NCBI GenBank assembly: GCA_000505065.1
Contig: AWSN01000001.1
Coordinates: 339,647 to 403,646 of the forward strand
DNA: 64,000 bases
Origin: Parcubacteria bacterium RAAC4_OD1_1
Lineage (GTDB): Bacteria; Patescibacteriota; Minisyncoccia; Phycocordibacterales; UBA9973
Reading direction: 5' to 3'
The translations under genes were made by a program, and so were the position numbers. Shown here piece by piece: positions 1-33,186 of this stretch (position 1 is its first letter; each line of letters starts with the position of its first letter). Below the pieces are notes generated by a model that made no database searches, was not told the DNA's origin, and was given only the letters and a program-made list of their open reading frames with translations.

Positions 1-165
1 ACTTAGGGGGAAGTTCCTATGTATTACTACCTCGTTCGCCACTAACTTTAAACGACCTTTGACCTTGATATAATCTCAATCTCCGGAAATAAAAAGTCCG
101 TTCGACTTGCATGCCTTATCCACGCCGCCAGCGTTCATCCTGAGCTAGGATCAAACTCTATTAAA
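1..165 (-). rRNA. rrs: 16S rRNA, 5' end only (gene continues past window start)
   Basis: Reverse complement of about 100-159 reads AGAGTTTGATCCTAGCTCAGGATGAACGCTGGCGGCGTGGATAAGGCATGCAAGTCGAACGG, the universal 16S 5' region. Downstream matches the h5-h6/V1 pattern (GTGGCGAACGAGGTAGTAATACATAGG). Confidence 0.9.
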
Positions 166-213
166 AAAATAGAACGAAACAAAATAAAAAATACTTTGTT
201 TTTACTGGATTAT

Positions 214-232
214 CGTCTCGCACGTTGCGAGA
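214..232 (-). other. Perfect hairpin (gtctcgcacgttgcgagac) in the 16S 5' leader; possible rRNA processing stem
   Basis: 8-bp inverted repeat about 60 nt upstream of the mature 16S 5' end; function inferred. Confidence 0.3.
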
Positions 233-468
233 CTTAACTTTATGATTTGCTACCACTTAAAAAGTGGGCAAATATTATATTGCCTCGATTAATTTACTCC
301 TAAAATAATCGGGCTAATTGAATGATACATTTCTATATAATTTTCAAAGAAATTAAAACAGCCAGAAACTAATCAGACTGTGGGTTCTATTATATACAAA
401 TCAATAAATAAGTCAAGGGTTTTTTATATAAAATAATACATAATAAAAACCCTTATTTTAAAAGGTTT

Positions 469-918
469 TTATTTGATGTTATCTTTATTAAAAGCTTTCC
501 TTATTTTACCTTCATTTGGGTCTTTGCCAATATTAGATTTCTTGATATTAGATAATTTATTTTTCTTATTTTCAATATTTTGTCTTTTAGCTTCATTAAA
601 TCTTCCAAACAATTCCCAACCTTGATCTTCTTTCTCAAACAAAATATTATCATCTAATTTAAGTTCTTTTAAGCTTACATAAGATTCGTCTTCGTTATTA
701 TCTTTTTTAACTTCTTCTATATCTCCATTTTGTTCTAACTCTTTAATAACTTCAAAATCATACTCCGTCAAAAGATGACCATTTTCTTTTGGTGCTTCTA
801 GTGGTTCTTCTTTTTTATCATCAATCTGATTGTCAAATTTTATTTCGAGTTGCTCTGCATCTGGTTTATTTATTTTTTTATTAAAACTAAATTTTTCCAT
901 AGCTCTATTATAATACAT
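469..918 (-). CDS. hypothetical charged (Lys/Glu/Asn-rich) protein
   Basis: 149-aa ORF with no recognisable motif; a hairpin terminator follows at 415-460. Confidence 0.4.
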   Translation of the reverse strand: MYYNRAMEKFSFNKKINKPDAEQLEIKFDNQIDDKKEEPLEAPKENGHLLTEYDFEVIKELEQNGDIEEVKKDNNEDESYVSLKELKLDDNILFEKEDQGWELFGRFNEAKRQNIENKKNKLSNIKKSNIGKDPNEGKIRKAFNKDNIK

Positions 919-1045
919 TTTTAATATTTACAAAAACCTATTTTTCTGCAATAATTCATTTAACTAACATTCCCTGTTATGCTGTTTTGGTAAATCTAAA
1001 GCTAATACAGTAAAATAAAGTTTAGTTTAAGAAAATAAATAGTTT

Positions 1046-1121
1046 GCCCTGTTAGCTCAGCTGGTAGAGCAGCTCCCTCTTAAGGAGATGGTCGGGGGTT
1101 CGATCCCCTCACGGGGCACCA
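1046..1121 (+). tRNA. tRNA-Lys (anticodon CTT), CCA encoded
   Basis: Cloverleaf GCCCTGT/ACGGGGC acceptor, D-arm GCTCAGCTGGTAGAGC, anticodon loop CT-CTT-AA, T-arm GGGGGTTCGATCCCCT, 3' CCA. Confidence 0.9.
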
Positions 1122-1134
1122 AAGCGTGAGACCA

Positions 1135-1168
1135 AAGAAAGCAACCTTCGTTGCTTTCTTTCGCTTTT
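1135..1168 (+). terminator. rho-independent terminator after tRNA-Lys
   Basis: Hairpin aagaaagcaaccttcgttgctttctt followed by a T-rich run. Confidence 0.5.
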
Positions 1169-1179
1169 GTGAGACGGAG

Positions 1180-1386
1180 TCATATTTTTTTCAGCAGAAA
1201 AAATAGACGAGTCAGGGTCGTGAAATTTTTCTTGTGACGACAAAAAAAATATTCCTGACCAAATAAAAAAGCACAAAATTTGTGATTTTTAAACATACCT
1301 AAATGTATGTTTAAAAAGATCGAAAGACGGACCGCGACGGCGGGAGTCGGGGTCGCAAGATTTTTCAGTAGAAAAATACTTGTGAC
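1180..1386 (+). repeat. two partial copies of structured repeat family 1 between tRNA-Lys and its 3'-end duplicate
   Basis: Contains the family modules ccgc-gacg-gcgg hairpin and atttttcag(c/t)agaaaaat hairpin (twice). ORF 1180..1407 here is judged spurious. Confidence 0.5.
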
Positions 1387-1406
1387 CGATTCCCTCACGG
1401 GGCACA
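1387..1406 (+). repeat. partial direct duplicate of the tRNA-Lys 3' end (19 of 21 nt)
   Basis: cgattccctcacggggcaca matches cgatcccctcacggggcacca at 1101-1121 (tRNA T-arm and acceptor 3' half). Confidence 0.7.
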
Positions 1407-1435
1407 AAAATAAAAAACCATTACAAAATGGTTTT

Positions 1436-2419
1436 TTATTTTCTCAACATTTTTACAAGCCCATCTATTAAGTATTTAATAGACTTATCATCATATAATG
1501 ACAAAGTGAAAACTGAATTCCCTGTTTTTTCAAAATCACTTTTTATTTTTTCTAATTTCTTTTGATCCGTCTTTTTACTTAAATCAAGCACGTCAGTTTT
1601 TGTAAGAATTATCACTTCCTTTTTTTCTAAAAGACTTTTATCGTAACTACCCAATTCTTTCCTGATCTGTTTGTAAACTTTTATTGGATTTTCATTTTCC
1701 AAAGATACAAGATGCGCAAGCATCCTAGTCCTCTTTATATGCTTTAAAAATTTAATTCCAAGTCCTTTTCCTTCACTCGCTCCCTCGATAAGTCCAGGAA
1801 TATCAGCAATGGTAAATCCATAAAAATCACCAAGGTTTGGATCAAGAGTTGTAAACTGATAACTACCAATTTTTGCATTTGCATTTGTAATAGAATTAAG
1901 AAGAGATGACTTCCCAGCATTAGGAAGACCAACTAGTCCAACATCAGCAAAAAGCTCAAGTTCTATTTTAAAATTACCCTCTTCCCCCCTTTTCCCTTTT
2001 GTTGCTCTTGTTGGAGTTGTGTTTGTTGAAGTTTTAAATTGTTCATTACCATATCCACCCACACCACCCTTAAGTAAAAGTTCTTTTTGTCCTGCCTCAT
2101 CTAAAGATACAGAAAATCCACTTTCGATATTTGTGATCACAGATCCCACTGGAAGCTCAATGATCAAATCTTTTCCATCACCGCCTTTTCTACTTCCCCC
2201 CGCTCCATCTTCACCACTCTCTCCTTCAAATTTTTTCTTATGTTTATATCTACTAAGTAAATGTATATCTTGGAGAGCTATAGCATAAATATCTCCACCA
2301 CGTCCTCCATCTCCACCGTTTGGACCTCCCTTATCTATAAACTTTTCTCGACGCCAGCGAACAACCCCGTCTCCACCGTGGCCAGCTTGTGCATAAAATT
2401 TTATTTCATCGATAAACAT
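1436..2419 (-). CDS. obg: GTPase Obg
   Basis: N-terminal Obg fold MFIDEIKFYAQAGHGGDGVVRWRREKFIDKGGPNGGDGGRGGDIY followed by a GTPase domain (GLVGLPNAGKSSLL...DIPGLIEGA). The upstream 26 codons of the ORF come from a family-1 repeat, so the start is set at the MFIDE Met. Confidence 0.9.
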   Translation of the reverse strand: MFIDEIKFYAQAGHGGDGVVRWRREKFIDKGGPNGGDGGRGGDIYAIALQDIHLLSRYKHKKKFEGESGEDGAGGSRKGGDGKDLIIELPVGSVITNIESGFSVSLDEAGQKELLLKGGVGGYGNEQFKTSTNTTPTRATKGKRGEEGNFKIELELFADVGLVGLPNAGKSSLLNSITNANAKIGSYQFTTLDPNLGDFYGFTIADIPGLIEGASEGKGLGIKFLKHIKRTRMLAHLVSLENENPIKVYKQIRKELGSYDKSLLEKKEVIILTKTDVLDLSKKTDQKKLEKIKSDFEKTGNSVFTLSLYDDKSIKYLIDGLVKMLRK

Positions 2420-2434
2420 AAAAGCTAAAATTAA

Positions 2435-2535
2435 AATAGTCTTATTGGAGTGGCTTGCGAGCGCGACGGCGCGAGCACTTGAGAAAATTTTTAGCAAAAA
2501 ATTTTCGTGCCCTCCGAGAAGAGCTATTTTAATTT
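2435..2535 (+). repeat. structured repeat family 1, copy D
   Basis: gcttgcgagcgcgacggcgcgagc...aaaatttttagcaaaaaatttt...gagaagagctatttta shares the modular architecture of copies at 4288, 15478 and 33072. Its 3' end forms the hairpin agagctattttaattttagctct. Confidence 0.7.
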
Positions 2536-2557
2536 TAGCTCTCCATTATTTATAACC

Positions 2558-3454
2558 TTAACTCATTAAAGCTTTTTTAACAAGTTCCATAATTCCTTCT
2601 TTAGATTTAGCAACAATTAAAAATCTACCATTATGACAAAAAATTGCATCTTTCACTCCAGATACTTGTGACATTTCTTCATCTCTTTTTCCAGCCCACT
2701 CTACAGGAAATGGCTTTCTTGTTTCAAATTTATACTTTTCTTTACGAACTGCTTCTGCTCGCCAAGTATCTCCTTTTTTAAAAACTACATACAATGGTTC
2801 ACTATATTCATTTATAATTTCAAACCAAGGGTATGATTTATCAAAAATAAGAACTCTTTTATCTTCTGACTCCTCGTAAACTTTTTTAACAATAGATGCT
2901 ACTTCAATAGAATCTTTAATTCTTACAATTTCTCTTTTTAAAATATCTGCAACTAAAGGAACTAATTTAATAAATGGAGCATCATAATCTTCTTTTTCTT
3001 TCCAGCTTGGTCTAAAACTAAAAAATAAATCCTGTATTGTATATGGAGCAATTCCACTATTAACATCAAAAAGATTTATGCCATTATCGTTTGCATCAAT
3101 TGGTAAAACTAATCTCTCTTCTATCTTCTCCGCAACTTCTTTACTCTCACAAATTTCTTCTCCATACTTTTTCCAAATAAGACCAAAAGATGAGTAAGGA
3201 ATTCCATTTTCTCTTTGCCCAGCACCACCCTTCTGATGGTGATCAAACTTATTTTTCTCTGGGTCATATTCTCCACCTACATCATATAAATAATCAGCTT
3301 TCTCAAAAATTTTCGGATCTCTTGTGCGAATGATTTTGATATTTCCATCATTTAAAATAGAGAGTGTCGCTGTTGCAAAAAGATCATCAGCATGAAAAGC
3401 TCCATTGTGAGTGACACATATTTTCTTTTTTTTTAAAAAATTCATATTAATCAA
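2558..3454 (-). CDS. MYG1/UPF0160 family metal-dependent hydrolase
   Basis: N-terminal CVTHNGAFHADD and DHHQ motifs typical of the MYG1 family. Confidence 0.8.
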   Translation of the reverse strand: MINMNFLKKKKICVTHNGAFHADDLFATATLSILNDGNIKIIRTRDPKIFEKADYLYDVGGEYDPEKNKFDHHQKGGAGQRENGIPYSSFGLIWKKYGEEICESKEVAEKIEERLVLPIDANDNGINLFDVNSGIAPYTIQDLFFSFRPSWKEKEDYDAPFIKLVPLVADILKREIVRIKDSIEVASIVKKVYEESEDKRVLIFDKSYPWFEIINEYSEPLYVVFKKGDTWRAEAVRKEKYKFETRKPFPVEWAGKRDEEMSQVSGVKDAIFCHNGRFLIVAKSKEGIMELVKKALMS

Positions 3455-3788
3455 AATGAAAAAATTTTGTAAGTATCCAGTTTATAATTGAAACAACTAT
3501 AGCACTTATAAATGCCGAAACAAAAGTTGCAACAACAAATCCGTCTATAACGGTTCCAAGATACCAAAAAACTAGGCCATTTATAACAAGAGAAAAAAGA
3601 CCTAGTGTAATTATATTTATAGGAAGAGTTAATATTTTTATAACAGGTTTAATAAACATATTAAAAAGTGCTAAACAAGCACCTACCACAAAAGAAGACA
3701 AGACGGAATCTGTACTTACTCCTGAAATCAATTCGGATGTGACCCAAACTGCTATAGACAATATCAACCAACGTAAAATAATTCGCAT
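3447..3788 (-). CDS. small 4-TM membrane protein (YvlD/DUF360, phage-holin-4-like superfamily)
   Basis: 113 aa with four hydrophobic segments; resembles PF04020-type proteins. Confidence 0.55.
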   Translation of the reverse strand: MRIILRWLILSIAVWVTSELISGVSTDSVLSSFVVGACLALFNMFIKPVIKILTLPINIITLGLFSLVINGLVFWYLGTVIDGFVVATFVSAFISAIVVSIINWILTKFFHFD

Positions 3789-3799
3789 AATTTTATATT

Positions 3800-4255
3800 T
3801 TATTTATAAAGTTCATCAACCACACTTTTAACCATAGCTCCATCTGCTTTACCCTTCAAATCTTTCATAAGTGTTGCCATAAACATTCCTTTCTTTGTAG
3901 GGTCTATTATACTTACTTCTCTGATTTTATTTTTTACAAATTCTTCCACTTCTTCCTTCTCCATCAATTTGGGTAAATATTCATTGAGTATTGCAAGTTG
4001 TTTAGATTCTTCTTCAACAAGATCCATTCTTCCTCCCTTGGTAAATTGCTCTATAGAATCTTTTCTTTGTTTTGCTAGTCTTGTAATCACAATAATTGAT
4101 TGCTCATCAGTAAGAGTATCTTGTGGGGTCCTCCCTGTTGCCACAAGTTCATTCATAAATGCAGTTGAAAGGCCCCTCATCACTTCGAGCCTCACCTTAT
4201 CCCCTGCTTTCATACTTTCTTTTATTCCATTTTTTATATTTTCATGTAATGTCAT
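3800..4255 (-). CDS. yqeY: GatB/YqeY domain protein
   Basis: Typical YqeY sequence (MKAGDKVRLEVMRGL...TDEQSIIVI...EYLP). The ORF's upstream 27 codons lie in a family-1 repeat, so the start is set at MTLHENIK. Confidence 0.8.
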   Translation of the reverse strand: MTLHENIKNGIKESMKAGDKVRLEVMRGLSTAFMNELVATGRTPQDTLTDEQSIIVITRLAKQRKDSIEQFTKGGRMDLVEEESKQLAILNEYLPKLMEKEEVEEFVKNKIREVSIIDPTKKGMFMATLMKDLKGKADGAMVKSVVDELYK

Positions 4256-4287
4256 GTATTTATTATAACACAAAAATCTTGAATAAA

Positions 4288-4384
4288 ATAGTCTTTGAGA
4301 AATGCCTTGCGCAGGACGACGGTCCGAGCAGAGCAAAAATCCAGCAGGATTTTATGTGTGCATTTCAAGAAGAGCTATTTTATT
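4288..4384 (+). repeat. structured repeat family 1, copy A (reference copy)
   Basis: aatagtctttgagaaatgccttgcgcagg-ACGACGG-tccgagcagagcaaaaatccagcaggattttatgtgtgcatttcaagaagagctatttta; about 85 percent identical to the reverse complement of 33072-33168. Confidence 0.8.
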
Positions 4385-4414
4385 CAAGATTAATAAAATG
4401 CTACAATATAATAT

Positions 4415-5140
4415 ATGAAACAAATTATATTTTTTGATACAGAGACAACAGGCAATGAACCCAAAAAAGATTTCCTTTGCCAATTAGCATATAAAAATGG
4501 CACAGAAACTTTCTGTGAACTTTACAAACCATCTATTCCTATACCACCTGAAGCAAGTGCTATTACCCATATTACAAACAAAATGGTTACCACAAAAAAT
4601 CATTTCCAAGAAGATCCAAGTTATAAAACAATCAAAGAATTATTTGAAGATCCAAATGGAGTAGTCGTCGCCCACAATGCCAAGTTTGACCTTGCTATCA
4701 TAGAAAAAGAAAACATCAAGCCAGCCAATTTCATTTGCACTCTTCGTGTCGCAAGATATTTAGATAAAGAAAATGTAATTCCCCAATATAAACTCCAATA
4801 TTTAAGATACTATCTAGAGATAGAAATAGAAGCTTCGGCTCATGATGCACTTGGAGATGTCCTCGTGCTTGAGAAATTATACGAGAGATTAATTGCAAAA
4901 ATAATGAAGGAAGAAAATTGTGATGAAGCTAATGCCATAGAAAAAATGATAGAAATTTCAAGTCGTCCTTCACTTATGAATATGTTTAATTTTGGAAAAT
5001 ACAATGGCAAAACAGTCGAGGAGGTAGCAAATATTGACCGCGGATATTTAGAATGGATGCTTGCCCAAAAAGAGCAAAACCCTGACAACGAAGAAGATTG
5101 GATTTATACATTAAAACATTATTTGGGGAAATTAAAATAA
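4415..5140 (+). CDS. DEDDh 3'-5' exonuclease (DnaQ/ExoX-like) with C-terminal KYNGKT..YLEWM domain
   Basis: Exo motifs FFDTETTG, VAHNAKFDLAII, HDALGDV; C-terminal FGKYNGKTVEEV...GYLEWM. Confidence 0.8.
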   Translation: MKQIIFFDTETTGNEPKKDFLCQLAYKNGTETFCELYKPSIPIPPEASAITHITNKMVTTKNHFQEDPSYKTIKELFEDPNGVVVAHNAKFDLAIIEKENIKPANFICTLRVARYLDKENVIPQYKLQYLRYYLEIEIEASAHDALGDVLVLEKLYERLIAKIMKEENCDEANAIEKMIEISSRPSLMNMFNFGKYNGKTVEEVANIDRGYLEWMLAQKEQNPDNEEDWIYTLKHYLGKLK

Positions 5141-5161
5141 AAATATGCTAAAATATACCAT

Positions 5162-6211
5162 ATGGAAATTTTAATTATTATATTTTTAGGAGTACTTATT
5201 GTTCTAGTTATAGGATTATTTTTCTTTTTGAAAAAGCCGACAAAAGACAATAGCGACGGGGTGACAAATATGCTCCTCCAACAGATCAATGAGCTTTCTC
5301 GAACCATAGATAACAAGCTTGGGGAATCACAAAAAGAAATAAATCAATCAATGCGATACCAATCTACAGAAACTTCCCGTATCATAGCTGACATTACAGA
5401 AAAGATTACAAGGCTTGATGAAACGAACAAGCAAGTTGTTTCTTTCGCAGACCAACTTAAAAATTTACAAGACATTTTAAAGAACCCAAAGCAACGCGGA
5501 ATATTGGGAGAGTATTATCTAGAAACATTATTAAAGAATGTCATGCCTCCGGGGTCTTACCAGATGCAGTACCCATTCCCTGATGGCACAATAGTTGATG
5601 CAGTCGTATTTGTAAAAGACAAAATCATCCCAATAGATTCAAAATTCTCGCTCGAAAATTATAATCGTATAAGTGAAACTAGCGACAAGACAGAAAAAGA
5701 AAGGCTAGAAAAAGTTTTTATAAATGATTTAAAGAATAGAATTGTAGAAACTTCCAAATATATTTTACCTGAAGAAAATACAATGGACTTTGCATTTATG
5801 TTTATACCCCATGAAGCAATTTACTACGATCTACTTATAAATAAAATCGGTGCAGTGACAGAGGATACCGAGAATCTAATCCAGCGTGCCGCAAGCAAAT
5901 ACAAAGTTATCATTGTTTCCCCTACTTCATTCCTTGCATATCTTCAAACTGTACTTCAAGGTCTCAAGGCTATGCAGATAGAAGAAAGTGCTAAAGATAT
6001 AGTCAAAAGAGTTGGAGACTTGGGTAAACATTTAAAATCATATGAGGAAGTTCACCAAAAGTTGGGCAATGCCATCTCCACAGTCGCTAATCATTTCACA
6101 AAATCAAATCAGGAGTTTAAAAAAATAGACAAAGACGTTATGAGGATAACTGGTGAAGCTATAGGAATAGAAACAATACAAATAGAAAAGCCAGATCAAG
6201 AAGAAATGTAA
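5162..6211 (+). CDS. rmuC: DNA recombination protein RmuC
   Basis: N-terminal TM segment, coiled coil, and an RmuC-like C-terminal region (YILPEENTMDFAFMFIPHEAIYYDL...IIVSPTSFLAYLQTV). Confidence 0.8.
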   Translation: MEILIIIFLGVLIVLVIGLFFFLKKPTKDNSDGVTNMLLQQINELSRTIDNKLGESQKEINQSMRYQSTETSRIIADITEKITRLDETNKQVVSFADQLKNLQDILKNPKQRGILGEYYLETLLKNVMPPGSYQMQYPFPDGTIVDAVVFVKDKIIPIDSKFSLENYNRISETSDKTEKERLEKVFINDLKNRIVETSKYILPEENTMDFAFMFIPHEAIYYDLLINKIGAVTEDTENLIQRAASKYKVIIVSPTSFLAYLQTVLQGLKAMQIEESAKDIVKRVGDLGKHLKSYEEVHQKLGNAISTVANHFTKSNQEFKKIDKDVMRITGEAIGIETIQIEKPDQEEM

Positions 6212-6217
6212 AACAAA

Positions 6218-6256
6218 CAGTCCAGCTCCGGCTTAAGCCGGAGCTGGACTGTTTTT
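6218..6256. terminator. bidirectional hairpin terminator between rmuC and the GY-rich gene
   Basis: cagtccagctccggcttaagccggagctggactg followed by T-run. Confidence 0.6.
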
Positions 6257-6274
6257 AAATCTATTTTATCTTTA

Positions 6275-6742
6275 TTAGTTACAATAGTAACTTCCACATT
6301 GTGGATAGAAAAACTTTGGTCCTATAAATGATACATAATCACTAGGAACTCCACTGTATCCACCATTTAGATATGGATAACCACTCATAGTTGTTCTTTG
6401 TGATCCATAAATACTATTACTAAACATTGGATTTTGATAGTATCCATAATTTCCTCCATAATATGAAGGAGAATAACCATAGCCACCACCATAATTAGAA
6501 GCATAATTATAATTATCATAGCCGTAGCCACCATAACTAGAGCCATAACCATAATTATCGTAACCATAGCCACTATCATATCCATAGTTATCATAGCCAT
6601 AACCATACCCATCATTATAATAATTACTTGAGCCAAAACTTATATCAACCCCAAAGTAAGCATCAGATTTCTCAGGAAGAGCAAATACTGAAACTCCAAC
6701 AAGGATGACAAAAGCGACTACTAAAATGTTAATTTTTTTCAT
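6275..6742 (-). CDS. secreted Gly/Tyr-repeat low-complexity protein
   Basis: Signal peptide MKKINILVVAFVILVGVSVFA, then GYGYDNYGYD-type repeats, C-terminal CGSYYC. Confidence 0.65.
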   Translation of the reverse strand: MKKINILVVAFVILVGVSVFALPEKSDAYFGVDISFGSSNYYNDGYGYGYDNYGYDSGYGYDNYGYGSSYGGYGYDNYNYASNYGGGYGYSPSYYGGNYGYYQNPMFSNSIYGSQRTTMSGYPYLNGGYSGVPSDYVSFIGPKFFYPQCGSYYCN

Positions 6743-6873
6743 AACATATATATTATATACCTTTTAAATCATTTTGTCAAGCCTAATTAAAACCCTTTAT
6801 TTAATACCTTTTCTATAAAAAAACCATCACCTAAACGTAGGGATGGTTTAATCTTATAAAAAACAAAAAAAAA

Positions 6874-7749
6874 TTAACTAGCCAACACCTGCTCTTTAAT
6901 CTTTTCCAAATAAGAACATTTTCTAAGTTTTCGAAAAGCCACAGTTTTAATATTTTCAACTGTTTCTTTTGGAATTTTCATTTCAAAAGCTATTTCACTA
7001 ATCGTTTTCTTTTCATAACCAATTCCAAAATTTTTCACGATGATTTCTTTTTGAACATCAGATAAAACAGATAACAGTCTTTGAACATTTTCATATCCCG
7101 ACATTACTTCTAAAAGTCTAAATGGATTGGGAGCATTTTTATCTTCTAAAACATCATATAAGTTTTTTTCTTCTTCATTATTTTTATAATCAAGTGAAAA
7201 AGCTGGTATTGAATATTGAGAAGCGGCTAATATGTTTTTAACACTTTTGCCTGTAATCTGAGACAACTCTTCAAGTGTAGGATTACGATCATTTTCTTTT
7301 TCAAATGAAGCTTTCACTTTCTTAATTTTATTAATAAGTTCAATTGCATTATAAGGAAGAGATATTACTCTGTCTTGCTTATAACTAAGATCTATCATTG
7401 ATTGTTTAATCCACGAAACAGCATAAGTAATCAACTTAAAACCTTTTGTGTCATCAAATCTTTCAATTGCTTTAATGAGTCCCAGATTCCCTGCATTAAT
7501 AAGATCAGACAGTTCCGAAAAGGGATATTTCTTTTTATGTTCATTTGCGACAGAAATTACAAATCGCAAATTTGCACAAATAAGTTCGTTCCTTGCCTCA
7601 ATGTCACCCTTCTTAGCTTTTCTAACTAAAACCACTTCCTTTTCAGCATTTATTAAATGATATTTACTAACATCATTTAAATAATAAGAAATCACAGATG
7701 TTCTTTCTGTGATAGAAAATTGGGATACTTTTAAATTAAGCTTTGTCAT
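6874..7749 (-). CDS. RNA polymerase sigma-70 family factor (compact RpoD-like)
   Basis: Region 2 (ICANLRFVISVANEH...GNLGLIKAIERFD), regions 3 and 4 present. Confidence 0.85.
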   Translation of the reverse strand: MTKLNLKVSQFSITERTSVISYYLNDVSKYHLINAEKEVVLVRKAKKGDIEARNELICANLRFVISVANEHKKKYPFSELSDLINAGNLGLIKAIERFDDTKGFKLITYAVSWIKQSMIDLSYKQDRVISLPYNAIELINKIKKVKASFEKENDRNPTLEELSQITGKSVKNILAASQYSIPAFSLDYKNNEEEKNLYDVLEDKNAPNPFRLLEVMSGYENVQRLLSVLSDVQKEIIVKNFGIGYEKKTISEIAFEMKIPKETVENIKTVAFRKLRKCSYLEKIKEQVLAS

Positions 7750-7831
7750 TCTCGTAAGTTTTTAATTGTTTATTTTTTGTTTTGTTAAATTACTATTTTT
7801 AAAATTAAATTACACTATTTTTACATAAAAA

Positions 7832-8416
7832 TCAACCCTTCTTACCTTTTCTAAATACCACTAATAACAAAACCAATGTATCAAATATAAATAAATATAA
7901 TGGATAAAGGAACTCTATTGGCATAAAATTATTAACTGCAAAAAGACTAAAAAGTCCTGCCAAAGAACAGAAACCCCAAGCAAGTGCTAACTCAGATTTT
8001 GGATTTTTATATGTTTTTATAATTGTTGGAATTCCAAAAAATAGATCAGCAAGTACTGCACACACGACCGCAACAAGAGCAATATCAGTAATTTGCCATA
8101 GTACTACTCCCAAGATTCCTAATCCAAAAAACATATAATCATATGTGGTCGTAGACCATACTCCTACTTTTTTATAAACAGAATAAATAACCACAAGCAC
8201 ACATGAAAGTGTATTAGCAAAAAGTATAATAACAGACCACTCTCCACCTTCAGATAACATTGCAAGCCCCCCTATAAATGTGATGAACGCCCACCCAAGC
8301 CAAGACAAATTGTGTGGATGTATTTCCTTTTTGTGAATACTAAAAAAGTAAGGCACAATCCCAAGGAAAGTAAAAACTGCTGACAAAATCCCAAATAAAA
8401 TTTTAATATTATACAT
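7832..8416 (-). CDS. polytopic membrane protein, unknown function
   Basis: 194 aa with about six hydrophobic helices. Confidence 0.5.
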   Translation of the reverse strand: MYNIKILFGILSAVFTFLGIVPYFFSIHKKEIHPHNLSWLGWAFITFIGGLAMLSEGGEWSVIILFANTLSCVLVVIYSVYKKVGVWSTTTYDYMFFGLGILGVVLWQITDIALVAVVCAVLADLFFGIPTIIKTYKNPKSELALAWGFCSLAGLFSLFAVNNFMPIEFLYPLYLFIFDTLVLLLVVFRKGKKG

Positions 8417-8419
8417 ATT

Positions 8420-8692
8420 TTATTTCTCTAACTTTTTATATAAAGTCCCTGTTATGATTAGTATAATGACTCCAAAAGAAAACATAGCCCAAGGGTTAAA
8501 TTTCAAAAAATTTATACTAAGTATCAAATCTTTAACTCCTTGGCTCATCATCGTCGCCCCAATGACGACAAGGAAAGCAAAAAGAAGCGGATATCTCTCA
8601 AAGACAGATTTCCCTTTTTTACTAAACATCTCATTTATTTTTGCGGTAAGTTCTTCTACTTTTTTTAATAAATCTAATTGATTTTTATCCAT
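8420..8692 (-). CDS. small membrane protein, unknown function
   Basis: 90 aa with a coiled-coil N-terminus and two TM segments. Confidence 0.45.
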   Translation of the reverse strand: MDKNQLDLLKKVEELTAKINEMFSKKGKSVFERYPLLFAFLVVIGATMMSQGVKDLILSINFLKFNPWAMFSFGVIILIITGTLYKKLEK

Positions 8693-8726
8693 AATTCTAT
8701 TCTATCATTTTATCAGCCAAAAATAA

Positions 8727-8750
8727 AAAGCCCCATAGGGCTTTTTATTT
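8727..8750. terminator. hairpin terminator
   Basis: aaaagccccatagggctttt flanked by A/T runs. Confidence 0.5.
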
Positions 8751-8756
8751 TTGAAA

Positions 8757-9308
8757 TTATTTAGATTTCTTTTTTGAAGCTACTTTTTTAACTTCCACTT
8801 TCTTTACAGGTGCTTTTAAAGCTACTTTTTTAACTGAAACTTTTTCAGTAGGCTTAGATACAGTCACTTTAGCAATTTCTTTTTTAGAAGTCATCCCTTC
8901 TATTGCATTTATAAGACGATCTAATTTTATATTCATTTCACTTAATTGCTTTTTAACATCATCATTTCCACCATGTGAATCATTTCTTACAAAAGAAGGC
9001 TTTCCGCCAAAATCTCTCCTTCCTCCTCTATCTCCAAAATCTTTTCTTCCTGTATCATTTCCTTTTTTACCTGAAAAACAATCATTACAATATATTGGCT
9101 TATCAGAAGATGGGCGAAAAGGAACTTCGCAAGGTTTATGACATTCATCACATACAGCTTTATGCATAGAAATTTCTCTTCTATCTCCACCGCGTCCTCC
9201 ACCAAATCCACCCTTGTTAAAACTAGGTCTTCCACCTCTGTCTCCTCCTCTAAACCCTCCATCTCTTCCTCCACCTCTATTACCTCCCCTATCATTAAAA
9301 TTTCCCAT
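8757..9308 (-). CDS. RGG-repeat protein with CxxC-x17-CxxC zinc ribbon and Lys-rich C-terminal tail
   Basis: Repeated RGG/GGR motifs, CDECHKPCEVPFRPSSDKPIYCNDCF (exactly CxxC-x17-CxxC), coiled coil, KKV-rich tail. Confidence 0.7.
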   Translation of the reverse strand: MGNFNDRGGNRGGGRDGGFRGGDRGGRPSFNKGGFGGGRGGDRREISMHKAVCDECHKPCEVPFRPSSDKPIYCNDCFSGKKGNDTGRKDFGDRGGRRDFGGKPSFVRNDSHGGNDDVKKQLSEMNIKLDRLINAIEGMTSKKEIAKVTVSKPTEKVSVKKVALKAPVKKVEVKKVASKKKSK

Positions 9309-9449
9309 TTTTATTTTTACCCATCTCCCTTACACTAGACAAGTTATTATTATTATTTCTTAATAATACCCTATTTCCAATAAAATAGCAAGGAAAACAA
9401 AAAGAGTCTCAACAATGTTGTGACTCTTTTAGAATAAACTAATTTATTT

Positions 9450-10013
9450 TTATATCTTCCCTATCAGGTCAACTCCAGGAGTAAGCACATCTTTCCCTGG
9501 TTCCCAACTAGCAGGACAAACATTCCCATCATGCTCTCTCACAAATTTTGCTGCCTCGAGCTTCCTTATCAATTCTTTTGTACTTCGGCCAATACTATTG
9601 TCATGTATTTCTATTGTCTTTAGTACTCCGTCTGGATCTATTATAAATGTTCCCCGAAGTGAGAGTCCTTCTTTCTCAATATAAGTTCCAAAAATATTAC
9701 AAACCTCCCCTGTCGTATCGGCAAGCATTGGGTATTCTATTTTTCCTATTGCAGGTGAGCTGTCGTGCCAAGCCTTATGAGTAAATGCTGTATCTGTACT
9801 TATACTTAGTATTTCCCCTCCCAATTTTTTAACTTCCTCATAGTGACCCTGTGCATCTTCTAATTCTGTTGGACACACAAAAGTAAAATCGGCTGGATAA
9901 AATATCAAAACTACCCACTTGCCCTTATAATTAGAAAGTTTAACTTTCTTTATTTCATTTGCCTTATAAGCATCAAGCTCAAACTCAGGCACGATATCAT
10001 TAATTTTTAACAT
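9450..10013 (-). CDS. peroxiredoxin (AhpC/TSA 2-Cys family)
   Basis: FTFVCPTE peroxidatic Cys motif, thioredoxin fold, resolving-Cys region. Confidence 0.9.
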   Translation of the reverse strand: MLKINDIVPEFELDAYKANEIKKVKLSNYKGKWVVLIFYPADFTFVCPTELEDAQGHYEEVKKLGGEILSISTDTAFTHKAWHDSSPAIGKIEYPMLADTTGEVCNIFGTYIEKEGLSLRGTFIIDPDGVLKTIEIHDNSIGRSTKELIRKLEAAKFVREHDGNVCPASWEPGKDVLTPGVDLIGKI

Positions 10014-10137
10014 ATATTATATTATACTAAGAATCAATAAAAACCCAAACCAAATACTTATTCTAATAAATAAATTTGACATTATTTAAAATAAATTGAC
10101 AAAAAATAGATTTAAAGTAATATCTAATTCAATAAAC

Positions 10138-10209
10138 GGATCTATAGTTCAGGGGCTAGAACACCAGATTTTAATTCTGGAAACATGAGTTCAACTCTCG
10201 TCAGATCTA
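10138..10209 (+). tRNA. tRNA-like gene with anticodon TTA (would read UAA; ochre-suppressor-like), possibly a pseudo-tRNA
   Basis: Cloverleaf: acceptor GGATCTA/CAGATCT (one A:C mismatch, one G:U); D-arm GTTC-AGGGGCTA-GAAC; anticodon stem CCAGA/TCTGG with loop TT-TTA-AT; 4-nt variable loop; T-arm ATGAG-TTCAACT-CTCGT. A terminator follows at 10313-10345. Confidence 0.5.
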
Positions 10210-10312
10210 CGGAAAGTTCTTTGTATATATAAACATATAAAAATGTGATTTTGGGAGAGGTCAACATTAAAGGGCATTCAACCGCTCGTTTGTTTATATT
10301 TGAAGAACTTAG

Positions 10313-10345
10313 AGCCGGTATTTGTTAAAAGTATCGGCTTTTTTC
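10313..10345 (+). terminator. rho-independent terminator
   Basis: agccggtatttgttaaaagtatcggct followed by tttttt. Confidence 0.55.
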
Positions 10346-10400
10346 TTTTTTATTATCTATTTAGCATCAAAACACTATAAAATATAACTTAAAAATAGTA

Positions 10401-10436
10401 CTGGGGTACATGGACCGTGAGTACATTTATCGAACC
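10401..10436 (-). repeat. degenerate duplicate of the tRNA-Gln 3' half
   Basis: ctggggtacatgga identical to 11352-11365 in the tRNA-Gln gene, then a 16-nt insert, then cgaacc as in the tRNA. Confidence 0.55.
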
Positions 10437-10703
10437 TTACAGGTTCAGTACACCTTTTTTGTTAATTAAATCAATTTTCTTTTCTCTTCTCCATCCTTTC
10501 AATTCAGTTTCTCGTTGGCGGGATTCTCTTAATGTTTCAAATTCTTCTTTATATTTCAAGATTACTGGCCTTCTTATTTTAGTATAATGTGCACCTGATT
10601 TAGAATTATTGTGTTGTTCTAATCTTCTCTCTAAATTATTAGTGGAACCAACATAAAAAGATTTATCTGCACATTCTAAGATGTAAGTAAAGAATTTATT
10701 CAT
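10437..10703 (-). CDS. GIY-YIG nuclease family protein (UPF0213-like)
   Basis: FFTYILECADKSFYVGSTNNLERRLEQH matches GIY-YIG. Confidence 0.8.
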   Translation of the reverse strand: MNKFFTYILECADKSFYVGSTNNLERRLEQHNNSKSGAHYTKIRRPVILKYKEEFETLRESRQRETELKGWRREKKIDLINKKGVLNL

Positions 10704-10830
10704 AAAATGATTTCCTTCGCTTATTAAAGCTCAGGACCTTCGTCTCTATAATTCGGGTCGAAGACCCTGAGGAGACTAGCAAGGCGACGAAGGGCTGAGC
10801 GTCACGAGTTAGAACTTTTCAATTCCTTAT
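10704..10830 (-). other. GC-rich structured element upstream of the GIY-YIG gene
   Basis: Nested inverted repeats gctcag..ccttcgtc / gacgaagg..ctgagc enclose a GGGTC-TTCG-ACCC hairpin; GC-rich in an AT-rich context. Confidence 0.35.
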
Positions 10831-10888
10831 CCCGTAATGCTATTTTAACTAATTTTATTATATTAAAACGACGTATCAAGAGCGACTA

Positions 10889-11275
10889 TTATTTTTTATT
10901 TCTATGCTCTTTTTTTATTTTCCAATAAATACTCTTTGAATCTGAATCAACTTTTTTATCTCTGTTTTTAAATAGATGTGCTGGATATTTTTGTTTTACT
11001 TTTTTTAATTTACTTAAAAATATTTTTCCCATATCAAAATTTAATAGAACACCCATATTGAAACAATATATTAATACATCAGCTAGTTCTTCTTTTATTT
11101 CTTCAATTTTTTCTTTATCTTTTTTAACTTCATCAAGTTCTTGATTTGTCCATTGGAATATTTCCAGTAACTCAGATGATTCTATTGATATAGATTTTGC
11201 AATATCTACTGGGCGTAAATTATCCCAATCTCGTTCTTTTAAATATTTTTTAACTTCATTTTCATATTTTTTCAT
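10889..11275 (-). CDS. MazG-like nucleotide pyrophosphohydrolase (small single-domain)
   Basis: EIFQWTNQELDE...ELADVLIYCFNM matches the MazG/NTP-PPase fold. Confidence 0.7.
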   Translation of the reverse strand: MKKYENEVKKYLKERDWDNLRPVDIAKSISIESSELLEIFQWTNQELDEVKKDKEKIEEIKEELADVLIYCFNMGVLLNFDMGKIFLSKLKKVKQKYPAHLFKNRDKKVDSDSKSIYWKIKKEHRNKK

Positions 11276-11348
11276 AGTTCAATTATATCGCTAAACAACA
11301 TAAATTAATAGATACAACGTATCTCGAGCGTAATAACCTCGCTCTTGC

Positions 11349-11422
11349 TGGCTGGGGTACATGGATTCGAACCACGATTAAAGGCTTCAAAGGCCTCTGT
11401 CCTACCATTAGACGATACCCCA
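11349..11422 (-). tRNA. tRNA-Gln (anticodon TTG), CCA encoded
   Basis: On minus strand: TGGGGTA acceptor with U1:A72 and G73 (typical bacterial tRNA-Gln), anticodon stem GAGGC/GCCTT with loop CT-TTG-AA, T-loop TTCGAAT. Confidence 0.85.
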
Positions 11423-15256: not shown

Positions 15257-16351
15257 TTATTTTGTCTTTTTTAAATATTCTTTCACAATTTTCTCTACTT
15301 CTTTTGCATTTTTGGTATTCATTAGTTTTATGCGAAGATCCTTAGCTCCATCCCATCCATTCACATACGCTTTATAATGCTTTTTCATAATATTAAAACT
15401 TTTTACTTTTCCTAGCATCTTCTCAAAAAGTTTTGTGTGTTCTACTAAAATTTTTAATCTTTCTTTTAGCGAAGGGATATGTTCTGAAAAGCCTTGCGCA
15501 GGGCGACTGGCCCGAGCAGAGAAATTTTTCACCAGAAAAATATTCGTGCTTTTCGGAATATATCCCAAGCGAAAAGAATCTAACCCAGCAAAAAACCACG
15601 GCTTGCCGAAAATACCCCTTCCCACCATTATCCCATCACATCCAGTTTTTTTCCATTTATTTATTCCATCTTCAAGACTTTCTACATCTCCATTACCAAT
15701 TATTTTCGTTTTCAATCCCATTTTATTTCTTATATCCACTACTTCTTTTATATGCTCCCAACGAGCTGGAACGAGGGACATTTCTTTTCTTGTTCTCGCG
15801 TGTATAGTAAGAGCATCTATGTCTTGAGAAAGAAGAAATGGTATCCATTCATTTATTTCATTTTTATTATATCCAATACGAGTTTTCACAGATATAGAGA
15901 TTTTCCTTGCCCGCCCTTTGGAATAGGGTTCTGCACTTGCATCTTTTATCCCATCTTTCACAGCTTGTATTATTTCTCCTGCAAGCTTAGGATTCTTCAT
16001 TAAGGATGCTCCTGCACCCTGCTTCTCTACTTTCTTATCAGGGCAACCCATATTGATATCTATGCCATCAAAACCAAGTGAGGCTACATATTTCGATGCT
16101 TCTCTCATTTTTTTAGGATTTGAAGAAAAAAGTTGTGCCACTATTGGCTTTTCTTTTTTATTAAATTTCAAATCTATTTCTAGTGCTTTTCTTCCTTCTT
16201 TATTTGAAAGTCCATCAGCAGAAACAAACTCTGTCCACATAACATCCGGCTTACCATATTTTACAAACATAGAGCGAAAAGAAGCATCTGTGACATCTGC
16301 CATCGGTGCAATACAAAAAAATGGTTTTTTTAATTTATTCCAAAAATTCAT
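15257..16351 (-). CDS. dus: tRNA-dihydrouridine synthase carrying an in-frame insertion from a family-1 repeat
   Basis: Dus motifs (FFCIAPMADVTD, NMGCP, GRGIFGKPWFF). Residues about 262-292 (LGYIPKSTNIFLVKNFSARASRPAQGFSEHI) are encoded by repeat copy B. Confidence 0.85.
   Translation of the reverse strand: MNFWNKLKKPFFCIAPMADVTDASFRSMFVKYGKPDVMWTEFVSADGLSNKEGRKALEIDLKFNKKEKPIVAQLFSSNPKKMREASKYVASLGFDGIDINMGCPDKKVEKQGAGASLMKNPKLAGEIIQAVKDGIKDASAEPYSKGRARKISISVKTRIGYNKNEINEWIPFLLSQDIDALTIHARTRKEMSLVPARWEHIKEVVDIRNKMGLKTKIIGNGDVESLEDGINKWKKTGCDGIMVGRGIFGKPWFFAGLDSFRLGYIPKSTNIFLVKNFSARASRPAQGFSEHIPSLKERLKILVEHTKLFEKMLGKVKSFNIMKKHYKAYVNGWDGAKDLRIKLMNTKNAKEVEKIVKEYLKKTK
15478..15568 (+). repeat. 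structured repeat family 1, copy B, inside the dus CDS
   Basis: gttctgaaaagccttgcgcagg-GCGACTGG-cccgagcagagaaatttttcaccagaaaaatattcgtgcttttcggaata; GC-rich island within the gene. Confidence 0.75.
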
Positions 16352-33042: not shown

Positions 33043-33071
33043 TATTAAACTACTGAGAAGAAAATCTACAC

Positions 33072-33168
33072 CAAATAGCTCTTCTCAAAATGCACACATA
33101 ATTTTCTGCTGAAAATTTGCTCTGCTCGGCTCGACAGCCTGCGCAAGGCATTTCTCAAAGACTATTTG
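33072..33168 (-). repeat. structured repeat family 1, copy C (inverted orientation)
   Basis: Reverse complement reads aatagtctttgagaaatgccttgcgcagg-CTGTCGAG-ccgagcagagcaaattttcagcagaaaattatgtgtgcattttgagaagagctattt. Confidence 0.8.
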
Positions 33169-33186
33169 GTTTCGATTTTTAAATAT

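What the first reader, a model, noticed from the sequence alone, without database searches (positions are those of the whole stretch)
4288..4384. Dispersed family of ~95-bp GC-rich structured repeats with compensatory base changes (family 1)
At least five full or partial copies occur in this 64-kb window, in both orientations. They are at 2435-2535, 4288-4384, 15478-15568 and 33072-33168 (inverted), plus partial copies at 1180-1386. The copies share modules. Module 1 is gccttgcgcagg-[tetraloop hairpin]-cgagcagagc. Module 2 is aaattttt-cag(c)ag-aaaaat. Module 3 is ...tgtgtgc...gagaagagctatttta. The internal hairpin covaries: ggac-gacg-gtcc (A), gggc-gactg-gccc (B), ggct-gtcg-agcc (C), gcgc-gacg-gcgc (D), ccgc-gacg-gcgg (E). 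So the RNA or DNA structure is under selection while the sequence drifts. The second hairpin (atttttc-NNNN-gaaaaat) is likewise maintained. This resembles Rickettsia palindromic elements or REP/MITE-like elements. It could also be a family of small structured RNAs or terminators. Nothing I know of describes such an element for this kind of genome.
Basis: seen in the sequence. Interest (0 to 1): 0.75.

Follow-up and report, generated by a model that had tools for sequence, protein, structure and literature searches.

The report
RPE-like structured palindromic repeats in Patescibacteria
A real, apparently undescribed family of ~95-125-nt repeats that fold into a long hairpin capped by a three-way junction is scattered through the tiny genomes of Patescibacteria (CPR bacteria), sitting between genes and even in frame inside essential genes, much like the "selfish" palindromic elements of Rickettsia.

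Summary
The window holds four full copies (4274-4396+, 2422-2545+, 15460-15583+, 33057-33179-) and one core-only variant (1301-1413+). All fold into the same three-way junction: a 25-35-bp outer stem, a GC hairpin and an AT hairpin. A covariance model finds full-length members only in Patescibacteria records. In a 47-sequence alignment, 94% of cells pair and 43 of 45 pairs show compensatory changes. The junction core is nearly invariant and the stems vary freely. Wobble and G·A pairs occur on one strand only. The family is not in Rfam, is not terminator-like, and no paper describing it was found.

Copies fill intergenic gaps in either orientation. About one in five lies in frame inside unrelated housekeeping genes (Dus, LigA, MnmA, NifS-like, PheT, TsaD); window copy B adds ~35 residues to a Dus linker. 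Syntenic relatives show presence/absence at all four sites I could compare, plus one internal-deletion scar. The same sites carry other palindrome families in other lineages.

Best reading: a non-autonomous, RPE-like selfish or mobile hairpin element. Its apical junction, not its termini, is probably the part recognised in trans. The mobilising enzyme and the active form (ssDNA or RNA) remain unknown.

The parts
4274..4396 (+). Copy A, the flagged one. It is a full element lying between the divergent starts of a YqeY-like gene (3800-4255, -) and an exonuclease gene (4415-5140, +). The conserved unit is about 4286-4380, and the outer stem tcttgaat/attcaaga extends it.
   Evidence: CM 135.5 bits, E 6e-36. 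MFE -50.4 kcal/mol, z -9.0. The orthologous gap is only 20-50 nt and empty in L124, L126 and L129.
2422..2545 (+). Copy D, a full element of the 'D-type' subfamily. Its P2 reads GCUUGCG-AG-CGCG..CGCG-AG-CAC, with a symmetric GA/GA internal loop. It fills the gap between the Obg start (2419) and the MYG1-like stop (2558) and is antisense to both genes.
   Evidence: CM 113.7 bits. MFE -54.0 kcal/mol, z -7.3. The same site is filled in L125, empty in L124, and occupied by a different palindrome in L126 and L127.
15460..15583 (+). Copy B, a full element embedded antisense and in frame in the tRNA-dihydrouridine synthase gene. It is translated as ...LDSFRLGYIPKSTNIFLVKNFSARASRPAQGFSEH...
   Evidence: CM 98.4 bits. 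ORF translation. Orthologues of ~320 aa lack the ~33-35 residues. DNA alignment of filled, empty and scar alleles.
15257..16351 (-). Host gene of copy B: Dus (PF01207), 364 aa. The insert lies in the linker between the TIM barrel and the C-terminal helical domain.
   Evidence: Homologues carry PF01207. In the AF2 model, residues 264-287 have pLDDT below 50 and no secondary structure, while the flanking domains are confident.
33057..33179 (-). Copy C, a full element on the minus strand between rbfA (32716-33042, +) and tRNA-Cys (33188-33260, +). It is 86% identical to copy A over 95 nt.
   Evidence: CM 125.9 bits. Inverted-repeat pair I1. MFE -44.1 against -34.4 kcal/mol on the other strand.
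1301..1413 (+). Core-only variant (best-matching part 1326-1383). It has a P2-like hairpin GAC-GGA-CCGC-GACG-GCGG-GA-GUC and a P3-like hairpin, but no long outer stem. It lies in a hairpin-rich spacer between tRNA-Lys and the Obg stop.
   Evidence: R1 27.9 bits, E 2.4e-5. R2 25 bits. L127 has a collinear ~110-nt block with a covarying P2b (GGCU..AGCC), inverted relative to Obg.

Best explanation
Family 1 is a non-autonomous, selfish (mobile or recently mobile) palindromic repeat of Patescibacteria. It is functionally analogous to the Rickettsia palindromic elements.

One defined strand of the ~95-125-nt unit folds into a long outer stem (P1) that ends in a three-way junction with two short hairpins:
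- P2 is UGC / G(C)A-GA internal loop / GC stem / GAC(U)G loop.
- P3 is an A/U-rich stem with a bulged A and a CAGCAG loop.

Shown here:
- The fold, its massive covariation and its strand asymmetry.
- Its spread across many Patescibacteria records.
- Insertion both between genes and in frame inside unrelated housekeeping genes.
- Presence/absence, decay and one internal-deletion scar at orthologous sites.

Inferred: the near-invariant part is the apical junction, while the termini differ between copies and no target-site duplication is visible. The element is therefore probably recognised in trans through its folded apex, on single-stranded nucleic acid. It is probably not recognised through terminal inverted repeats by a DDE transposase. 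The closest mechanistic analogies are hairpin-recognising HUH/Y1 enzymes (REP/REPIN-RAYT, IS200/IS605) acting on ssDNA, or an RNA-intermediate route.

The stems are kept paired either by selection on each copy or by arm-to-arm templated correction. Copies inside genes survive when a stop-free frame falls in a tolerant loop or linker. The mobilising enzyme is not identified.
For: **Fold and covariation.** Four window copies share the same three-way junction, z -5 to -9. Across 47 sequences, 94.2% of cells pair, 43 of 45 pairs show changes on both sides, 0 of 500 shuffles reach this, and slid controls give 39-51%.

**Conservation pattern.** Mean pairwise identity is 0.41 in P1 against 0.91 in the junction, P2a and loops. 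This is partly by construction, because most loci were found through a 19-nt core pattern.

**Strand asymmetry.** GU/UG 72 against AC/CA 16, and GA/AG 56 against CU/UC 4. MFE is 3-11 kcal/mol better on one strand.

**Distribution.** Full-length hits (61-120 bits) occur only in Patescibacteria-titled records, in loci of 31-54% GC. Density is about 1 per 16-25 kb, from the window and 124 kb of protein-anchored relatives.

**In-frame copies.** They lie in Dus (two different sites), LigA, MnmA, a NifS-like gene, PheT and TsaD. The antisense ones share the peptide KSTNI.L..NFSAR.SRPAQGF.

**Dus alleles.** Orthologues occur with and without the ~33-aa insert. The insert is a low-confidence linker in the AF2 model.

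**Presence/absence between syntenic relatives.**
- Site A is filled only in the window. It is empty in L124 and L126, and in L129, whose exonuclease is 92% identical.
- The DprA|SerRS site is filled in L121 and L123 but empty in the window and L120.
- Site D is filled in the window and L125 and empty in L124.
- L122 keeps only a scar, and L120 has a decayed copy in a frame-broken Dus.

**Same subfamily at different loci.** The same ~97-nt subfamily, with 81-85% of aligned model columns identical, sits at non-homologous loci in other genomes: A compared with L083 and L030.

**Other negatives that fit.** No transposase, reverse transcriptase or integrase was found in the window (synteny). RPE behaviour as described in PMC10969869 matches.
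Against: - No transposition event, donor or enzyme was identified, and no target-site duplication or target consensus was seen.
- The core is conserved across very different hosts (31-54% GC). That is more typical of a functional RNA than of junk repeats.
- Same-site copies differ by 7-10 compensated double changes against 0-1 single changes. This implies in-situ maintenance of pairing, which a purely decaying selfish insert would not show.
- The same sites (Dus linker, Obg|MYG1) carry different palindrome families in other lineages. This could mean site-specific function or targeting rather than random insertion.
- Taxon labels of many MAG records ('uncultured Candidatus Saccharibacteria') may be imprecise, so the true phylogenetic breadth is uncertain.
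Confidence: 0.6

Rival explanations
1. A multi-copy functional structured RNA (small RNA, protein-binding RNA or ribozyme) conserved across Patescibacteria. On this reading the intragenic and polymorphic copies are by-products of gene duplication or retro-insertion.
For: The junction, internal loop and hairpin loops are near-invariant while the stems covary. G·U and G·A pairs occur on one strand only. The P2a helix covaries (UGC/GCA, UAC/GUA, UUC/GAA, GAC/GUC) around a kept G(C)A/GA internal loop. Pairing is maintained in situ between same-site copies.
Against: - No Rfam family, including all ribozyme classes, matches even at E up to 10.
- Orientation relative to flanking genes is mixed: about 9 sense against 12 antisense in tandem contexts (my tally), and majority coding strand 18 same against 30 opposite, p 0.11.
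- Copies abut or overlap ORF ends by 0-20 nt, leaving no room for a promoter or terminator.
- About 6 of 7 independent intragenic insertions are antisense to the host mRNA.
- Copies are present or absent between close relatives with no visible compensation.
Confidence: 0.2
2. A host-beneficial cis-acting signal, such as a transcript-processing or stabilising hairpin, a terminator or insulator, or a replication or uptake signal, that has been spread and retained by selection.
For: Most copies sit exactly in intergenic gaps at gene boundaries. The same boundaries are occupied by other palindrome families in other lineages. The structured strand lies on the locally C-rich strand in 34 of 48 cases, p 0.006 uncorrected. 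A 30-bp duplex would be an RNase III-type substrate (general knowledge).
Against: - None of the copies is terminator-like: there is no U-tract, although genuine terminators are detected elsewhere in the window.
- Copy A lies between divergent gene starts, and other copies lie inside coding sequences.
- Close relatives do without the copy at the same boundary.
- The orientation bias is inflated by intragenic and orthologous copies and is confounded with coding-strand composition.
Confidence: 0.12
3. A REP/REPIN-type repeat mobilised specifically by a RAYT (Y1/HUH transposase).
For: The elements are long hairpins with compensated arms, lack target-site duplications, and show strand-specific single-strand structure. 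Head-to-head pairs occur in L014, L058 and L033. A 237-aa Y1_Tnp gene with an HUH motif lies next to Dus in the syntenic relative L121, and a 36%-identical one lies in L088.
Against: The L121 Y1 gene is flanked by its own, unrelated small hairpins (ggaagtcggacttcc), not by family-1 copies. That hairpin and any Y1 homologue are absent from the window. Here the conserved part is the apex rather than the arms, and copies occur inside genes.
Confidence: 0.08

Closest known systems
Rickettsia palindromic elements (RPE-1 to RPE-10; Ogata et al. 2000/2002, as summarised in PMC10969869)
   Same: Both are short (~100-150 bp) dispersed palindromic repeats in small, AT-rich genomes of host-dependent bacteria. 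Both occur as several co-existing families. Both are frequently inserted in frame in unrelated housekeeping genes, encode a conserved peptide, and are tolerated in the protein. In both cases the mobilising machinery is unknown.
   Different: The host phylum is different (Patescibacteria, not Rickettsiales). No sequence relationship was tested or is expected. Here the conserved part is an apical three-way junction with near-invariant junction nucleotides across hosts of 31-54% GC, and the arms are free to vary.
REP / REPIN elements with RAYT (Y1/HUH) transposases
   Same: Both form hairpins as single strands, with compensatory changes between arms. Neither has target-site duplications. Both occur as inverted pairs. 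Y1-type genes exist in relatives of this genome.
   Different: In REPINs the conserved parts are the two arms (the REPs) and the loop is free, which is the reverse of what is seen here. REPs are extragenic. The Y1 gene seen in L121 has its own distinct hairpins, and none is present in the window.
Classical bacterial MITEs (Correia/NEMIS, ERIC, BOX, RUP)
   Same: Both are non-autonomous, ~100-200 bp, capable of folding, intergenic, and occasionally inserted in frame in ORFs.
   Different: MITEs are defined by conserved terminal inverted repeats matching a parent IS, and by target-site duplications. Here the termini vary between copies, no duplication was seen, and no parent IS was found.
Integron attC sites
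   Same: Both have a structure that is conserved more than the sequence, and both are active as a single folded strand.
   Different: attC sites conserve the base of the hairpin (R/L boxes). They lie in cassette arrays next to an IntI integrase. None of this is seen here.
GC-rich palindromic clusters of AT-rich yeast and fungal mitochondrial genomes
   Same: Both are GC-rich hairpin elements scattered in an AT-rich compact genome, occur as several families, and sometimes lie inside coding regions (from general knowledge).
   Different: The genetic system is unrelated, no sequence or structural relationship was tested, and those clusters have no three-way-junction core.

Membership tests
Rickettsia palindromic elements (RPE) | Short dispersed repeat able to form a long hairpin | tested here: met
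   Four window copies fold at -44 to -54 kcal/mol, z -5.4 to -9.0. 94% of cells pair across 47 sequences.
Rickettsia palindromic elements (RPE) | Recurrent in-frame insertion in unrelated protein-coding genes, encoding a conserved peptide | tested here: met
   Insertions lie in Dus (two sites), LigA, MnmA, a NifS-like gene, PheT and TsaD. The shared peptide is KSTNI.L..NFSAR.SRPAQGF. Insert-free orthologues exist.
Rickettsia palindromic elements (RPE) | Sequence homology to an RPE family consensus, in a Rickettsiales host | not tested
   No RPE consensus was available in the tools. All hosts found are Patescibacteria records. I therefore file this as RPE-like in behaviour, not as an RPE.
Rickettsia palindromic elements (RPE) | The insert lies in a structurally tolerant (surface or linker) part of the protein | tested here: met
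   In the AF2 model of the window Dus, residues 264-287 have pLDDT below 50 and no secondary structure, and lie between a confident TIM barrel and a confident helical domain. This is a model only.
Classical MITE (DDE-transposase derived) | Terminal inverted repeats conserved across the family | tested here: not met
   P1 columns have a mean pairwise identity of 0.41. AAAAUAG...CUAUUUU is shared only by a subfamily (copies A, C, D, L030, L083) and is absent from copy B.
Classical MITE (DDE-transposase derived) | Target-site duplication flanking the insert | tested here: not met
   Filled and empty sites were compared at YqeY|exo, DprA|SerRS and the Dus linker. No direct repeat was seen, and the flanks continue the inverted repeat instead. 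The flanks are diverged, so short duplications of 2-3 nt cannot be excluded.
Classical MITE (DDE-transposase derived) | A parent IS or transposase with matching ends | tested here: not met
   No transposase, integrase or reverse-transcriptase domain was found in 30 window ORFs scanned. The remaining ORFs are housekeeping genes by synteny. The rest of the genome was not available.
REP/REPIN-RAYT | A Y1/HUH (RAYT) gene flanked by copies of the repeat | tested here: not met
   Y1_Tnp genes occur in L121 and L088. The L121 gene is flanked by different hairpins, ggaagtcggacttcc. No Y1 homologue or such hairpin occurs in the window.
Intrinsic (rho-independent) terminator | A GC-rich stem immediately followed by a U-tract, placed at 3' ends of genes | tested here: not met
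   None of the copies is among the 20 terminator-like sites in 1-17000. Copy A lies between divergent starts and copy B lies inside an ORF.
Any Rfam 15 family (including hammerhead, twister, twister-sister, pistol, hatchet, HDV-like) | Covariance-model match | tested here: not met
   No hit at gathering threshold in the window. At E up to 10 on copy A and on a GC-rich member, only chance-level hits appeared.
Integron attC | A cassette array with an adjacent IntI integrase | tested here: not met
   No integrase domain was found in the window ORFs scanned. Copies are dispersed among housekeeping genes rather than in an array. The R/L boxes were not searched for.

The most novel reading that the evidence does not exclude
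The near-invariant three-way junction, with a tandem-G·A-type internal loop and GAC(U)G and CAGCAG loops, is an active module. It could be a catalytic or protein-recruiting RNA or ssDNA structure that makes this a new class of structure-addressed mobile element. Alternatively it could be a domesticated, genome-wide functional signal specific to Patescibacteria. Its arms would be kept paired in situ by selection or by templated arm-to-arm correction.
Probability: 0.15. Interest if true: 0.85.

Novelty: new variant of a known kind. Interest (0 to 1): 0.64.

Why it matters
Patescibacteria (CPR) make up a large share of bacterial diversity. They have ~1-Mb genomes thought to be streamlined and poor in mobile DNA.

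A dense repeat family (about one copy per 16-25 kb) that even sits in frame inside essential genes such as Dus, LigA, MnmA, PheT and TsaD has three consequences:
- It explains part of the odd extra loops seen in CPR proteins, and some split or frameshifted gene calls in MAGs.
- It offers a lineage marker.

The unusual conservation pattern, an invariant apex with free arms on one strand only, points to a recognition mechanism unlike terminal-repeat transposition. It gives a concrete ~60-nt bait for finding the partner protein. The covariance model could also be added to annotation pipelines.

Tried and rejected
- **Actinobacterial and other high-GC hits.** About 80 of the 119 loci from the genome scan lie in conserved coding sequence, have no hairpin between the two halves, and give no CM hit. 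They are chance or codon matches, not family members.
- **Rfam.** Nothing matched at gathering or at permissive thresholds.
- **Viral contigs.** One pattern match was found, but it is not a member.
- **RAYT link.** The Y1 gene in L121 carries its own unrelated REP hairpins, and these are absent from the window.
- **Terminator idea.** Rejected.
- **Outer stem as an inverted copy of host flank.** The Dus copy hints at this: ttctttt pairs with host aaaagaa. At sites A and DprA|SerRS, however, the whole hairpin including its outer stem is absent from the empty alleles. I treat the Dus case as chance or as later extension.
- **Target-site duplication or consensus.** None was seen.
- **Orientation bias to the C-rich strand.** 34 of 48, p 0.006. 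I do not rely on it, because intragenic and orthologous copies inflate it and skew is confounded with the coding strand. The bias relative to the coding strand is not significant (p 0.11).
- **Literature.** Seven searches found no description. The library lacks most subscription-journal papers.

Full report
**1. What is in the window**

The window is 31-32% GC and about 88% coding. It starts with the 5' end of a 16S rRNA gene and carries six tRNA genes. Its proteins are closest to those of MAG records titled Nomurabacteria or Paceibacterota.

The repeat finder pairs 4286-4380 with 33073-33167 at 86% complementarity. Each copy, with about 15 nt of flank on each side, folds into the same structure:
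- a 25-35-bp outer stem (P1);
- an A/U-rich hairpin (P3) with a bulged A and a CAGCAG-type loop.

Fold energies are -44 to -54 kcal/mol, z -5.4 to -9.0, and 0 of 200 shuffles fold as well. The opposite strand folds 3-11 kcal/mol worse.

RNAalifold on the four copies gives 45 pairs, 25 of which already show compensatory changes. A covariance model (R1) finds exactly these four in an unfiltered scan of the window, at 98-135 bits. It also finds a core-only relative at 1326-1383 (27.9 bits). Everything else is a generic hairpin. A second model built from 47 sequences gives the same answer.

**2. The family outside the window**

I scanned one genome per species (GTDB set) for the core pattern CCTTGCGCAGG-N8-11-CGAGCAGA. 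About 80 of these are high-GC Actinobacteria and others. There the pattern lies in conserved coding sequence, has no hairpin, and gets no model hit. I discard them.

The other ~40 loci are all records titled Saccharibacteria, Paceibacterota, Parcubacteria, Nomurabacteria, Zambryskibacteria, Minisyncoccia or 'Patescibacteria group'. They give full-length matches of 61-120 bits, sometimes two per 8-kb locus. Locus GC ranges from 31 to 54%, so the hosts are diverse. Some MAG taxon labels may be loose.

On the 47-sequence alignment:

| Measure | Observed | Control |
|---|---|---|
| Cells forming a standard pair | 94.2% | 62.6% in shuffles; 39-51% with partners slid by 1-3 columns |
| Pairs with changes on both sides | 43 of 45 | |
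| Shuffles reaching the observed values | 0 of 500 | |

Mean pairwise identity is 0.41 in P1 columns, 0.56-0.66 in the P3 and P2b stems, and 0.91 in the junction, P2a and loops. That last figure is inflated because most loci were seeded with the core pattern. 'By-catch' copies show what is really kept. P2a itself covaries (UGC/GCA, UAC/GUA, UUC/GAA, GAC/GUC) around a kept G(C)A / GA internal loop, which is GA/GA in the D-type. I read that loop as compatible with tandem sheared G·A pairs; this is inference.

No Rfam 15 family matches, even at E up to 10. No member was found in IMG/VR viral contigs.

**3. Which strand folds**

In the paired columns there are 72 G·U/U·G against 16 A·C/C·A, and 56 G·A/A·G against 4 C·U/U·C. 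One P3 base pair alone is G-C in 22 sequences and G·U in 17. So the fold matters on the strand that reads GCCUUGCGCAGG, as RNA or as single-stranded DNA. The model-fitted alignment leans slightly towards this result, but not by this margin.

**4. Genomic context**

Most copies fill an intergenic gap almost completely, 0-20 nt from the flanking ORFs. They occur in divergent, convergent and tandem gene arrangements. In tandem contexts they are sense or antisense about equally: about 9 against 12 by my tally, and 18 against 30 by majority coding strand, p 0.11.

None is terminator-like, although real terminators are detected elsewhere in the window. No transposase, integrase or reverse-transcriptase domain occurs among the window's ORFs (the rest are housekeeping genes by synteny).

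**5. Copies inside genes**

Copy B lies inside the 364-aa tRNA-dihydrouridine synthase gene. It is antisense and in frame, and reads ...PWFFAG-LDSFRLGYIPKSTNIFLVKNFSARASRPAQGFSEH-IPSLKERLK.... Many close orthologues are ~320 aa and read ...PWLFSG-KVPTIKEKLK... with nothing in between. Others carry the same ~33-residue insert.

The AF2 model places the insert (residues 264-287, pLDDT below 50, no secondary structure) in the linker between a confident TIM barrel and the helical domain.

In other genomes, family members are in frame in the following genes:
- Dus at a different, N-terminal site (L026);
- LigA (L091);
- MnmA (L101);
- a NifS-like desulfurase (L038);
- PheT (L030);
- TsaD (L118, the only sense-oriented one).

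The antisense-embedded copies belong to one subfamily: a 5-nt P2 loop...GAGAAAUU...AUAUUCGUGC. Its frame is open and free of Cys codons, giving KSTNI.L..NFSAR.SRPAQGF. This is the behaviour described for Rickettsia palindromic elements (PMC10969869).

**6. Gain, loss and decay**

I fetched syntenic loci of relatives through the Dus and exonuclease proteins.

| Site | Filled | Empty or other |
|---|---|---|
| A (YqeY\|exo) | window only | gap is 20-50 nt and empty in L124, L126 and L129 (exonuclease 92% identical) |
| DprA\|SerRS | L121 (105.9 bits), L123 (a degenerate 47-bit copy) | empty in the window and L120 |
| D (Obg\|MYG1) | window, L125 | empty in L124; a different palindrome in L126 and L127 |
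| Dus linker | window, L121, L048, L120 | empty in L123; L122 keeps only a 6-residue scar (LHKINF) matching L120's 5' arm; L125 and L126 carry two other GC-rich perfect hairpins |

In L120 the copy has 8 broken pairs and the gene is split into 280 + 53 aa.

The whole hairpin, including its copy-specific outer stem, is missing from the empty alleles. No direct repeat flanks the filled ones.

The same ~97-nt subfamily as copy A occurs at non-homologous loci in other genomes: 81-85% of aligned model columns are identical in L083 and L030.

Density is 4 copies per 64 kb in the window and 5 per 124 kb in protein-anchored relatives.

**7. An unexplained feature**

Copies at the same site in different genomes differ mainly by double, compensated changes: 7-10 double against 0-1 single, with 3-6 broken pairs. 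Many of these are transversion pairs that cannot pass through a wobble intermediate. There are three possible explanations:
- each copy is under selection for pairing;
- the arms correct each other by template switching within the hairpin;
- the same site was hit independently by different subfamily members.

The evidence here does not separate these.

**8. Interpretation**

The data fit best a non-autonomous selfish palindromic element of the RPE type. Its distinctive property is that the apex (the three-way junction) is conserved, rather than the termini. This, the one-strand asymmetry and the lack of duplications argue against a DDE/TIR mechanism. They favour recognition of a folded single strand by a trans-acting factor: HUH/Y1-like on ssDNA, or an RNA-mediated route.

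A RAYT-like Y1 gene does occur next to Dus in L121, and another in L088. The L121 gene has its own unrelated hairpins, and none is in the window. The link is therefore only an analogy.

A functional multi-copy RNA, or a beneficial cis signal, remains possible because of the deep conservation. Both fit the intragenic, polymorphic and orientation-free distribution less well.

**9. Novelty**

No Rfam family and no paper in the searchable library describes it. That library lacks most subscription journals. I classify it as a new variant of a known kind: RPE-like in behaviour, but not a member of the RPE families. Sequence homology was not testable here and the host is different.

Noticed in passing
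window 10138-10210 (+): A well-scoring tRNA gene (Rfam 58.4 bits) whose 7-nt anticodon loop UUUUAAU gives anticodon UUA, so it would read the stop codon UAA. ARAGORN calls it tRNA-Stop. ORFs in the window look intact under the standard bacterial code, so its role is unclear. It could be a suppressor, a misread Lys-type loop, or a pseudo-tRNA.
   Followed up: partly
window 45610-45706 and 59329-59429 (+): A second palindromic repeat family (repeat finder D9/D11). It has a long A/U-rich outer stem around a GC-rich core AUGUCUGGCACCGG...UCCGAGGAC. It folds only modestly better than shuffles (z about -3).
   Followed up: partly
L125 14523-15533, L126 13305-14348; L126 1862-1972, L127 2391-2501: Other lineages carry unrelated GC-rich perfect hairpins at exactly the same sites as family-1 copies. 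In the Dus linker these are gacccctccc...ggggaggggtc and aaaggccttgcctc...gaggcaaggcctt, both read in frame. In the Obg|MYG1 gap a third family is present. These sites are either hot spots or especially tolerant.
   Followed up: partly
L014 3582-3831, L058 3450-3695, L033 6762-7056: In three genomes two family members sit head-to-head, 7-53 nt apart. Each pair combines a canonical copy with a variant copy whose P2a helix has covaried (UAC/GUA, UUC/GAA, or D-type).
   Followed up: partly
L121 11435-12235: A 237-aa Y1/HUH (IS200/RAYT-like) gene is inserted between Dus and holB in a syntenic relative. It is flanked by its own small hairpins (ggaagtcggacttcc), and a ~1.8-kb block here is absent from the window. 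A 36%-identical homologue lies in L088.
   Followed up: yes
window 1122-1440 (+): The spacer between tRNA-Lys and the Obg stop is a chain of at least six hairpins (MFE -112.7 kcal/mol, z -10.3) and includes the core-only variant. The corresponding ~110-nt block in L127 is inverted relative to Obg.
   Followed up: partly
window 15257-16351 (-), residues about 141-149: Dus carries a second small lineage-specific insert (EPYSKGRAR) with low model confidence (residues 144-148). It is shared by some orthologues (P0007, P0019, P0085). Other orthologues have further small inserts at the N-terminus and in the helical domain.
   Followed up: no
window 55705-59277 (-): A 1190-aa isoleucyl-tRNA-synthetase-like ORF has a histidine-phosphatase domain (His_Phos_1, residues 509-676) matching inside the synthetase core.
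   Followed up: no
window 40000-44025 (-): Two adjacent large ORFs contain four diverged ~210-nt repeats (repeat finder D1/D2). They match PG_binding_1 plus, unexpectedly, the APP_N (amyloid A4 N-terminal heparin-binding) profile.
   Followed up: no
window 10437-10703 (-): A stand-alone 88-aa GIY-YIG nuclease-domain protein lies next to the unusual tRNA. The same small gene is syntenic in L127.
   Followed up: no
window 6275-6742 (-): A 155-aa signal-peptide-like ORF made largely of Gly/Tyr/Asn/Ser repeats (GYGYDNYGY...), with matching 42-45-nt DNA repeats (repeat finder D3). It has no Pfam match.
   Followed up: no
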